A stretch of DNA of 64,000 nucleotides from NCBI RefSeq assembly GCF_024502345.1, contig NZ_JALDNN010000001.1. The stretch is one strand, 5' to 3'. The notes beneath the pieces were generated by a model, which saw only the letters and a program-made list of their open reading frames with translations, was not told the origin of the DNA and did no database searches. The position numbers were made by a program, and so were the translations under genes. Each line of letters opens with the position of its first letter. Positions within the stretch are counted from its first letter, which is position 1. The DNA is from Escherichia coli (GTDB lineage Bacteria > Pseudomonadota > Gammaproteobacteria > Enterobacterales > Enterobacteriaceae). This document shows, one piece after another, positions 58,193 through 58,966 of this stretch.

Positions 58193-58966
58193 ATGAATTC
58201 ATTCGAGCGAAGGAATAAGATCATCCAATTAGTGAATGAACAGGGAACCGTGCTTGTTCAGGATCTGGCGGGAGTATTTGCTGCCTCGGAAGCGACAATC
58301 CGTGCCGATTTGCGCTTTCTCGAACAAAAAGGCGTGGTTACGCGCTTTCATGGCGGTGCGGCGAAAATAATGTCCGGTAATAGTGAAACCGAGACCCAGG
58401 AAGTCGGGTTTAAAGAGCGATTTCAGCTCGCCAGCGCGCCAAAAAACAGAATAGCGCAGGCGGCAGTCAAAATGATCCACGAAGGGATGACCGTTATTCT
58501 CGACAGCGGAAGTACGACAATGCTTATCGCCGAAGGATTAATGACCGCCAAAAATATCACGGTGATTACCAACAGTCTCCCGGCAGCGTTTGCCCTTTCC
58601 GAAAATAAAGACATTACTCTGGTCGTCTGTGGTGGCACGGTCCGCCATAAAACGCGCTCGATGCATGGTTCCATTGCCGAGCGTTCATTGCAGGATATTA
58701 ATGCCGATTTAATGTTTGTCGGTGCTGATGGTATTGATGCGGTTAATGGTATTACGACCTTTAATGAAGGTTATTCGATTAGCGGTGCGATGGTCACCGC
58801 CGCTAATAAAGTGATTGCCGTTCTCGATTCATCGAAATTTAATCGTCGCGGTTTTAATCAGGTACTGCCAATCGAAAAAATTGACATTATTATTACCGAT
58901 GATGCTGTGTCAGAGGTGGATAAACTGGCATTGCAGAAGACACGGGTAAAATTAATTACGGTGTAG
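58193..58966 (+). CDS. gatR: DeoR-family repressor of the gat operon, intact
   Basis: Uninterrupted ORF with N-terminal DeoR HTH; start trimmed to MNSFERRNKIIQL. Confidence 0.85.
   Translation: MNSFERRNKIIQLVNEQGTVLVQDLAGVFAASEATIRADLRFLEQKGVVTRFHGGAAKIMSGNSETETQEVGFKERFQLASAPKNRIAQAAVKMIHEGMTVILDSGSTTMLIAEGLMTAKNITVITNSLPAAFALSENKDITLVVCGGTVRHKTRSMHGSIAERSLQDINADLMFVGADGIDAVNGITTFNEGYSISGAMVTAANKVIAVLDSSKFNRRGFNQVLPIEKIDIIITDDAVSEVDKLALQKTRVKLITV

What the first reader, a model, noticed from the sequence alone, without database searches (positions are those of the whole stretch)
58193..58966. gatR is intact
The DeoR-type repressor gene is uninterrupted here. In K-12, as I recall, gatR is split by an IS3 copy, making the gat operon constitutive. 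This strain would therefore be expected to have inducible galactitol catabolism.
Basis: established knowledge. Interest (0 to 1): 0.2.

Follow-up and report, generated by a model that had tools for sequence, protein, structure and literature searches.

The report
Intact galactitol repressor gene gatR
This E. coli strain carries the normal, uninterrupted copy of the galactitol-operon repressor gene gatR, which is the usual state in the species; the broken, IS3-interrupted copy is found only in the K-12 laboratory lineage among the genomes I looked at, so the finding is correct but ordinary.

Summary
Window 58193..58966 (+) is an uninterrupted 257-codon ORF with a DeoR-type HTH and a DeoRC sensor domain. 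It lies directly downstream of full-length gatYZABCD and converges on yegS.

In K-12 MG1655, gatR (b4498) is split by the 1258-bp IS3E. The insertion point corresponds to window 58489-58491 (a 3-bp GAC duplication, codon T100).

With the IS removed, K-12 gatR encodes exactly the window protein (7 synonymous differences). The window protein is also identical to GatR of E. coli HS (WP_001295426.1). That allele restored regulated gat expression when put into MG1655 (PMC5850726).

The intact form is the norm:
- 4756 of 5426 complete E. coli genomes hold the locus in one piece.
- 349 carry the K-12 gatR::IS3 junction, and every one listed is a K-12-type laboratory derivative.

Galactitol-inducible regulation is therefore the reasonable expectation. 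There is one caveat outside gatR. GatC here carries two strain-private substitutions, A64V (looks benign) and G391V (a fairly conserved glycine near the substrate hairpin). Actual galactitol use is therefore not guaranteed.

Already known; low interest.

The parts
58193..58966 (+). gatR coding sequence, 257 aa plus TAG stop; DeoR/GlpR-family repressor of the galactitol operon, uninterrupted
   Evidence: ORF listing and sequence. Pfam HTH_DeoR and DeoRC. RefSeq annotation of identical DNA. Protein identical to HS GatR and to K-12 GatR with the IS removed.
58187..58192 (+). Two in-frame upstream codons (ATG ACG) giving an alternative 259-aa start, used by some database entries
   Evidence: one search lists the ORF from 58187. 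Cluster members are 257 or 259 aa long.
58208..58366 (+). Region encoding the DeoR-type helix-turn-helix DNA-binding domain
   Evidence: Pfam PF08220, residues 8-60 of the 259-aa translation, E=1.3e-16.
58439..58900 (+). Region encoding the DeoRC sensor/oligomerisation domain
   Evidence: Pfam PF00455, residues 85-238, E=2.5e-51. Closest solved relative by sequence is the DeoR C-terminal domain 7l6l, E=1.9e-11.
58489..58491 (+). GAC: the site where K-12 carries IS3E (3-bp target duplication, inside codon T100). Unoccupied in this window.
   Evidence: Alignment of the window with both K-12 fragments. Junction sequences and the 299+475 = 774 nt sum. Split hits start at query position 390.
58088..58192 (+). 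gatD-gatR spacer with a GC-rich hairpin (58093-58101 / 58107-58115) that has no clear T-run; 100% identical in K-12 and HS. The gatR promoter was not located.
   Evidence: Inverted repeat. Three-way alignment with every column invariant. No sigma-70 consensus hit in the spacer.
58979..59040 (.). REP-like palindrome (58979-59011) and an AT-rich hairpin (59017-59040) between the convergent gatR and yegS genes; probably a shared terminator region
   Evidence: Sequence read directly. Terminator-like hit at 59017-59040.
52718..58087 (+). gatYZABCD structural genes, the presumed target of GatR: gatY 52718-53572, gatZ 53601-54863, gatA 54873-55325, gatB 55356-55640, gatC 55644-56999, gatD 57047-58087. 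All are full length.
   Evidence: ORF list. Gene-by-gene comparison with HS and K-12. Exact proteins present in public collections.
52596..52717 (+). gatY promoter region. It holds a CRP-like site TGTGA-N6-TCTCG (52640-52655), a promoter-like TCGACA-18-CATTAT (52653-52682), and a candidate DeoR/AgaR-type operator (52665-52688) overlapping the -10.
   Evidence: Sequence. Promoter scan. The operator is the only match to the AgaR-type consensus in the 64-kb window. Alignment with K-12 and HS. Site assignments are inference.
55833..55835 (+). gatC codon 64, GTG (Val) where every other E. coli examined has GCG (Ala); private substitution
   Evidence: Val is the second commonest residue at this position in distant homologs.
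56814..56816 (+). gatC codon 391, GTG (Val) where others have GGG (Gly); private substitution, 7 residues before the substrate-contacting Asp of hairpin HP4
   Evidence: Structural context.

Best explanation
The feature is the wild-type gatR gene of Escherichia coli.

Shown here:
- It encodes a 257-aa DeoR/GlpR-family protein with an N-terminal helix-turn-helix and a C-terminal DeoRC sensor/oligomerisation domain.
- The protein sequence is the common E. coli allele.
- It is the same sequence that, taken from strain HS, restored regulated gat expression in K-12.

Inferred from family knowledge and the literature:
- GatR oligomers bind operator DNA at the gatY promoter. The best candidate operator is 52665-52688, overlapping the -10.
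- This binding blocks transcription of gatYZABCD.
- Repression is relieved when galactitol is present, probably through a phosphorylated pathway intermediate bound by the DeoRC domain, as in other DeoR-family repressors.

In K-12, IS3E sits in codon 100. The truncated product keeps only the HTH plus 10 IS-encoded residues, repression is lost, and the operon runs constitutively. This window lacks that insertion, so its gat operon should be repressed without galactitol and induced with it.
For: - Intact ORF and domains.
- Synteny gatYZABCD-gatR-yegS, identical to annotated K-12, HS and MLI023K1.
- K-12 IS3E annotation, junctions and the 110-aa truncated product.
- Protein identity to HS GatR (WP_001295426.1) and to K-12 GatR with the IS removed; the 7 nucleotide differences are all synonymous.
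- The HS allele restored regulation in MG1655, and de novo IS insertions in that restored gatR gave constitutive mutants (PMC5850726).
- Silencing gatR in strains LF82 and CFT073 was beneficial in the mouse gut, which the authors read as these strains failing to de-repress gat.
- The exact protein is seen on at least 1000 contigs and named 'DeoR family galactitol utilization operon repressor'.
- 4756 of 5426 complete genomes hold the locus in one piece.
- The K-12 junction is present in 349 genomes.
- The gatD-gatR spacer is 100% conserved.
- An AgaR-type operator match lies over the predicted -10 of the gatY promoter.
Against: - No expression or growth data exist for this strain.
- The operator and gatR promoter assignments are weak. 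The consensus was recalled from memory, and 19 of 100 shuffles of the window give at least one match somewhere.
- A motif shared by the gatY and gatR upstream regions is not significant.
- No sigma-70-like hit lies upstream of gatR.
- The gatY promoter carries one private SNP, at 52648, in the spacer of the CRP-like site.
- GatC carries private A64V and G391V. If either impairs uptake, induction by external galactitol could be weak or absent even with a perfect repressor.
Confidence: 0.88

Rival explanations
1. gatR is intact and functional, but the strain is galactitol-negative or poorly inducible. GatC (the EIIC permease) is impaired by the private G391V and/or A64V substitutions, so little galactitol enters and the repressor is never relieved.
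For: - Both changes are absent from all ~5030-5058 complete genomes that hold the region: no exact 81-mer match was found.
- This exact GatC occurs on a single contig in the 15-billion-protein collection.
- Both positions are invariant in 133 closer homologs.
- G391 is Gly in 74 of 114 distant homologs, and Val is not among the six commonest residues there.
- It lies 7 residues before D398, the equivalent of the substrate-contacting D399 on hairpin HP4 of LgGatC.
- Loss-of-function gat mutations are repeatedly selected in the mouse gut.
Against: - A64V is conservative: Val is the second commonest residue at that position in the wider family.
- Position 391 sits in a loop that varies in length in more distant GatC proteins.
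- 35% of columns are invariant in the close-homolog alignment, so two new mutations both landing on invariant columns is not improbable, about 0.12.
- Gat-negative selection was not seen when gatR was functional.
- SNP density in the operon is no higher than in the flanks, measured against the nearest genome.
- Assembly error cannot be excluded.
Confidence: 0.15
2. The ORF is a paralogous DeoR-family regulator such as AgaR or SrlR rather than the galactitol repressor, so comparison with K-12 gatR would be irrelevant.
For: The best NCBIfam hits are AgaR (232.9 bits) and SrlR (226.3 bits). The library shows no GatR-specific model.
Against: - Both scores are below the curated cut-offs of 260 and 350.
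- The gene is syntenic with K-12 gatR.
- It is 99.1% identical in DNA to K-12 gatR (7 differences in 774 nt) and 100% identical in protein.
Confidence: 0.01
3. gatR is intact but not expressed, or expressed too weakly to repress, so the operon is effectively constitutive as in K-12.
For: No consensus sigma-70 promoter was found in the 105-nt gatD-gatR spacer. The hairpin after gatD lacks a T-run, so the source of gatR transcription is unclear.
Against: - The spacer is 100% identical to that of HS, whose gatR locus (PCR fragment from yegS to gatD) restored regulation in MG1655.
- The 7 differences from K-12 are all synonymous, which is consistent with purifying selection on the protein.
Confidence: 0.04

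Closest known systems
GatR of E. coli HS (WP_001295426.1), and the GatR of wild isolate EC3132 described by Nobelmann & Lengeler 1996
   Same: The protein is identical to HS GatR. Gene order gatYZABCD-gatR-yegS is the same. The gatD-gatR spacer is the same. The HS allele is experimentally shown to regulate the gat operon.
   Different: There are 7 silent nucleotide differences in gatR. The gatY promoter allele differs from HS at several positions. GatC differs by A64V and G391V. The EC3132 sequence and paper could not be read here.
gatR::IS3E pseudogene of E. coli K-12 (b4498)
   Same: Same locus and same coding sequence apart from 7 synonymous sites. The upstream spacer is identical.
   Different: K-12 has the 1258-bp IS3E with a GAC duplication inside codon 100. 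Its truncated product is 100 native plus 10 IS-encoded residues and lacks the DeoRC domain. The window has no insertion. The MG1655 reference also has a frameshifted gatC, whereas the window's gatC is full length.
AgaR (N-acetylgalactosamine/galactosamine regulon repressor, DeoR family)
   Same: Same two-domain architecture. It is the best-scoring curated family over the full length. An AgaR-like operator motif is present at the gatY promoter.
   Different: The score is below the equivalog cut-off (232.9 against 260), and the genomic context is the gat operon, not aga. It is therefore a paralog, not a member.
DeoR (deoxyribose operon repressor), C-terminal domain structure 7l6l
   Same: It is the only solved structure found by sequence search, matching residues 83-254 of GatR. 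The fold and the logic of sensing a sugar phosphate are probably shared.
   Different: The similarity is distant (E=1.9e-11, 47 bits), and the effector and operators differ.

Membership tests
GatR (galactitol operon repressor, DeoR/GlpR family) | N-terminal DeoR-type helix-turn-helix domain | tested here: met
   PF08220, residues 8-60, E=1.3e-16, above the gathering score
GatR (galactitol operon repressor, DeoR/GlpR family) | C-terminal DeoRC sensor domain, full length | tested here: met
   PF00455, residues 85-238, covering positions 5-159 of the 160-position profile, E=2.5e-51
GatR (galactitol operon repressor, DeoR/GlpR family) | Located immediately downstream of gatYZABCD on the same strand, before yegS | tested here: met
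   ORF map of the window against annotated K-12, MLI023K1 and HS loci
GatR (galactitol operon repressor, DeoR/GlpR family) | Sequence identity to an allele with demonstrated repressor function | tested here: met
   0 amino-acid differences from HS GatR. The HS allele restored regulation in MG1655 (PMC5850726).
GatR (galactitol operon repressor, DeoR/GlpR family) | Represses gatYZABCD, with repression relieved by galactitol | not testable with these tools
   Needs expression measurements with and without galactitol, and a gatR deletion in this strain
GatR (galactitol operon repressor, DeoR/GlpR family) | Binds defined operator(s) at the gat promoter | tested here: inconclusive
   One AgaR-type consensus match at 52665-52688 overlaps the predicted -10. 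The consensus was recalled from memory, and 19 of 100 shuffles give at least one match in the window. A motif shared with the gatR upstream region is not significant.
K-12-type gatR::IS3E null allele | IS3 inserted at codon 100 with a GAC target duplication | tested here: not met
   The window reads straight through ...GGGATGACCGTTATT... with a single GAC at 58489-58491
AgaR (NCBIfam NF040755, equivalog) | Score at or above the curated cut-off of 260 bits | tested here: not met
   232.9 bits
SrlR/GutR (NCBIfam NF007753, equivalog) | Score at or above the curated cut-off of 350 bits | tested here: not met
   226.3 bits

The most novel reading that the evidence does not exclude
The intact repressor may sit next to a strain-private, functionally altered permease. 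The three private changes in the gat locus (GatC A64V, GatC G391V, and a T>C in the CRP-site spacer of the gatY promoter) could record recent within-host selection on galactitol uptake in a natural strain with normal regulation. Possible outcomes are reduced uptake, which would avoid galactitol toxicity, or altered substrate range. Until now such selection has been documented mainly in the constitutive K-12 background.
Probability: 0.08. Interest if true: 0.3.

Novelty: already known. Interest (0 to 1): 0.07.

Why it matters
It matters little beyond correct annotation. The intact gatR is the ancestral, species-typical state. The K-12 IS3E disruption and the resulting constitutive gat expression have been cited since 1996. 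The practical point is a reminder that K-12 is the exception. Conclusions about galactitol metabolism, galactitol toxicity or gat-negative selection in the gut drawn from K-12 do not carry over directly to strains like this one, which should regulate the operon. The private GatC changes are a small, testable side observation.

Tried and rejected
- The primary paper (Nobelmann & Lengeler 1996, PMC178577) is not held. The constitutive-expression claim therefore rests on later papers that cite it.
- A look-up of the contig encoding the exact GatC found nothing on record, so the source strain was not identified. No complete genome matches the 12.8-kb stretch at better than 98.7%.
- I looked for an operator motif shared by the gatY and gatR upstream regions (AAACARATCATTYCA). 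There were 2 hits, but 11 of 100 shuffles do as well, and K-12 and HS differ at one motif base. Rejected as evidence.
- The core ATTTCAT is not enriched: 15 observed against 14.7 expected.
- The sigma-70 scan found no promoter in the gatD-gatR spacer, so gatR transcription initiation stays unresolved.
- I tested whether differences from the nearest genome (MLI023K1) cluster abnormally in the gat operon. There are 8 differences in 11.8 kb, against 6-10 per 9-12 kb in neighbouring segments and 107 per 25 kb further away. There is no excess.
- I tested whether invariance of the two GatC positions among close homologs is meaningful. 35% of columns are invariant. With distant homologs, A64V looks benign, and only G391V remains mildly suspicious.
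- The AgaR and SrlR assignments were rejected because both score below cut-off and the synteny points to gat.
- PMC5850726 calls the K-12 insertion 'IS1' in one sentence. The annotation, the 1258-bp length and the terminal sequences show IS3E.

Full report
**1. The observation**

Window 58193..58966 on the + strand is a single open reading frame of 257 codons ending in TAG. A further in-frame ATG lies two codons upstream at 58187. The product matches the DeoR-type helix-turn-helix (PF08220, E=1.3e-16) and the full DeoRC sensor domain (PF00455, E=2.5e-51).

**2. Identity of the gene**

Upstream on the same strand lie six full-length ORFs:
- gatY, 52718-53572
- gatZ, 53601-54863
- gatA, 54873-55325
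- gatB, 55356-55640
- gatC, 55644-56999
- gatD, 57047-58087

Downstream, yegS converges at 59048-59947. This is the gene order annotated in K-12 MG1655, MLI023K1 and HS. The NCBIfam library shows no GatR-specific model. The best hits are AgaR (232.9 bits, cut-off 260) and SrlR (226.3 bits, cut-off 350), both below threshold. The protein is therefore a paralog of those regulators, and synteny together with identity to K-12 gatR identifies it as GatR.

**3.

NC_000913.3 annotates gatR (b4498) as a pseudogene in two fragments, 299 and 475 nt. They are separated by the mobile element IS3E (2170171-2171428, 1258 bp, insE5/insF5).

The first K-12 fragment follows the window up to ...GGGATGAC and then runs into the IS3 end TGATCCTACCCACG. 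The second fragment resumes from ...GATCA with GACCGTTATT. The target duplication is therefore GAC at window 58489-58491, inside codon T100.

The K-12 reading frame yields 100 native residues plus 10 IS-encoded ones. That is the HTH without the DeoRC domain. Joining the two fragments gives 774 nt with seven differences from the window, all synonymous, so the encoded proteins are identical.

**4. Function**

Several papers state that the IS insertion in gatR makes the K-12 gat operon constitutive:
- PMC4072538, citing Nobelmann & Lengeler 1996
- PMC10878103
- a 2026 preprint that names IS3E

The strongest evidence is PMC5850726. The authors replaced the K-12 pseudogene with gatR from E. coli HS, obtained a strain that regulates the operon, and then saw de novo IS insertions in that gatR give constitutive mutants in mice.

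I fetched the HS locus. Its GatR is WP_001295426.1, with no amino-acid difference from the window protein. The 105-nt gatD-gatR spacer is identical in the window, K-12 and HS. The window therefore encodes a protein identical in sequence to a repressor that has been tested for function.

The mechanism is inferred from the family. The HTH binds operator DNA, the DeoRC domain mediates oligomerisation and binds a sugar-phosphate effector, and repression is lifted when galactitol is metabolised.

At the gatY promoter I read three features:
- a CRP-like site, TGTGA-N6-TCTCG (52640-52655)
- a promoter-like TCGACA-18-CATTAT (52653-52682)
- the only match in the whole window to an AgaR-type operator consensus (52665-52688), overlapping the -10

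The operator assignment is a lead only. The consensus is recalled from memory, and 19 of 100 shuffles give a match somewhere in the window.

**5. How common is the intact state?**

| Class | Complete E. coli genomes (of 5426) |
|---|---|
| Any match to the gatR locus | 5109 |
| At least 80% of the locus in one place | 4756 |
| K-12 gatR::IS3 junction (80-bp query across the junction) | 349 |

The four full-length junction matches shown (ER1709, JME66 and two transconjugants) all have K-12-sized genomes. The 349 junction carriers account for almost all of the 353 partial matches.

The exact window protein is seen on at least 1000 contigs. Intact gatR is therefore the norm. Among the genomes listed, the disrupted allele is found only in K-12-type laboratory strains.

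**6. A caveat outside gatR**

The expectation of 'inducible galactitol catabolism' also needs working structural genes. All are full length. The exact GatZ, GatA and GatB proteins are very common, and GatY and GatD are shared by 285 and 23 contigs.

GatC is different. The exact protein occurs on a single contig. It differs from the common allele WP_000490679.1 by A64V (GCG>GTG) and G391V (GGG>GTG). Neither 81-mer centred on these codons occurs in any of about 5030-5058 complete genomes. Both positions are invariant in 133 homologs down to 68% identity, but 35% of all columns are invariant in that set.

I then compared 114 distant full-length relatives taken from the 50%-identity representatives:

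| Position | Residues in 114 distant relatives | Reading |
|---|---|---|
| 64 | A 49, V 27, I 16, L 11 | A64V looks benign |
| 391 | G 74; Val not among the six commonest | G391V uncertain |

G391 lies seven residues before D398. That residue is the equivalent of D399 on hairpin HP4, which lines the substrate cavity in the Leminorella GatC structure. G391V is therefore of uncertain effect.

A third private change, T>C at 52648, lies in the spacer of the CRP-like site. SNP density in the operon is not unusual relative to the nearest genome. I treat this as a minor rival for the phenotype (about 0.15), not as a challenge to the gatR finding.

**7. Verdict**

The feature is the ordinary wild-type gatR. 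Novelty: already known. Interest: low.

Noticed in passing
window 55644-56999 (gatC; codons at 55833-55835 and 56814-56816): GatC carries two strain-private missense changes, A64V and G391V. Neither is present in about 5000 complete E. coli genomes, and the exact protein is known from one contig only. A64V looks benign in distant homologs. G391V hits a fairly conserved glycine 7 residues before the substrate-contacting Asp of hairpin HP4.
   Followed up: partly
window 52648 (gatY promoter, CRP-like site 52640-52655): A private T>C change lies in the 6-bp spacer of the CRP-like site TGTGA-N6-TCTCG upstream of gatY. No complete genome matches the 125-bp promoter query exactly; the best is 99.2%. 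The gatY promoter region is polymorphic in the species: most genomes are 90-95% identical to this allele.
   Followed up: partly
window 60943-64000: This is the end of a P2-like prophage: integrase (60943-61956, -), a repressor-like HTH ORF (62072-62443, -), and cox (62493-62768, +) followed by small early genes. It lies just past yegR, where K-12 keeps only the cryptic PR-X remnant (ogrK, yegZ). In 756 complete genomes one place covers at least 80% of the 12.8-kb query that runs from the gat operon into this prophage end.
   Followed up: partly
window 21875-22878: A tandem pair of ~600-nt units is 86-95% identical. Each unit has an Rfam OrzO-P antitoxin RNA hit (21909-21984 and 22519-22592, - strand). 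This is the zor-orz type I toxin-antitoxin duplication, lying between yehL and yehK.
   Followed up: partly
window 52443-52513 and 58979-59011: REP/BIME-type palindromic elements are present. The one in the fbaB-gatY spacer scores as Rfam naRNA4 (68.3 bits). A single REP-like palindrome follows the gatR stop codon.
   Followed up: no
L002 (K-12 MG1655) 7922-9279, compared with window 55644-56999: The MG1655 reference gatC is itself annotated as a pseudogene. It is 1358 nt against 1356, with a frameshift from about codon 306. The window's gatC is full length.
   Followed up: partly
window 1393-1473 and 44501-44597: Rfam hits: Peptidase-S11 RNA motif upstream of pbpG, and the TPP riboswitch upstream of thiM. 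Both are the expected elements for these genes.
   Followed up: no
window 25079-25089 and 34448-35216, compared with L007 (MLI023K1): The nearest complete genome differs structurally from the window at two places. It has about 1.4 kb extra at the yehK/yehI side, and the window holds ~770 bases with no counterpart there, upstream of the yeh fimbrial genes. The first 25 kb of the window is also about six times more divergent (0.43%) than the rest, which suggests a recombination boundary.
   Followed up: no
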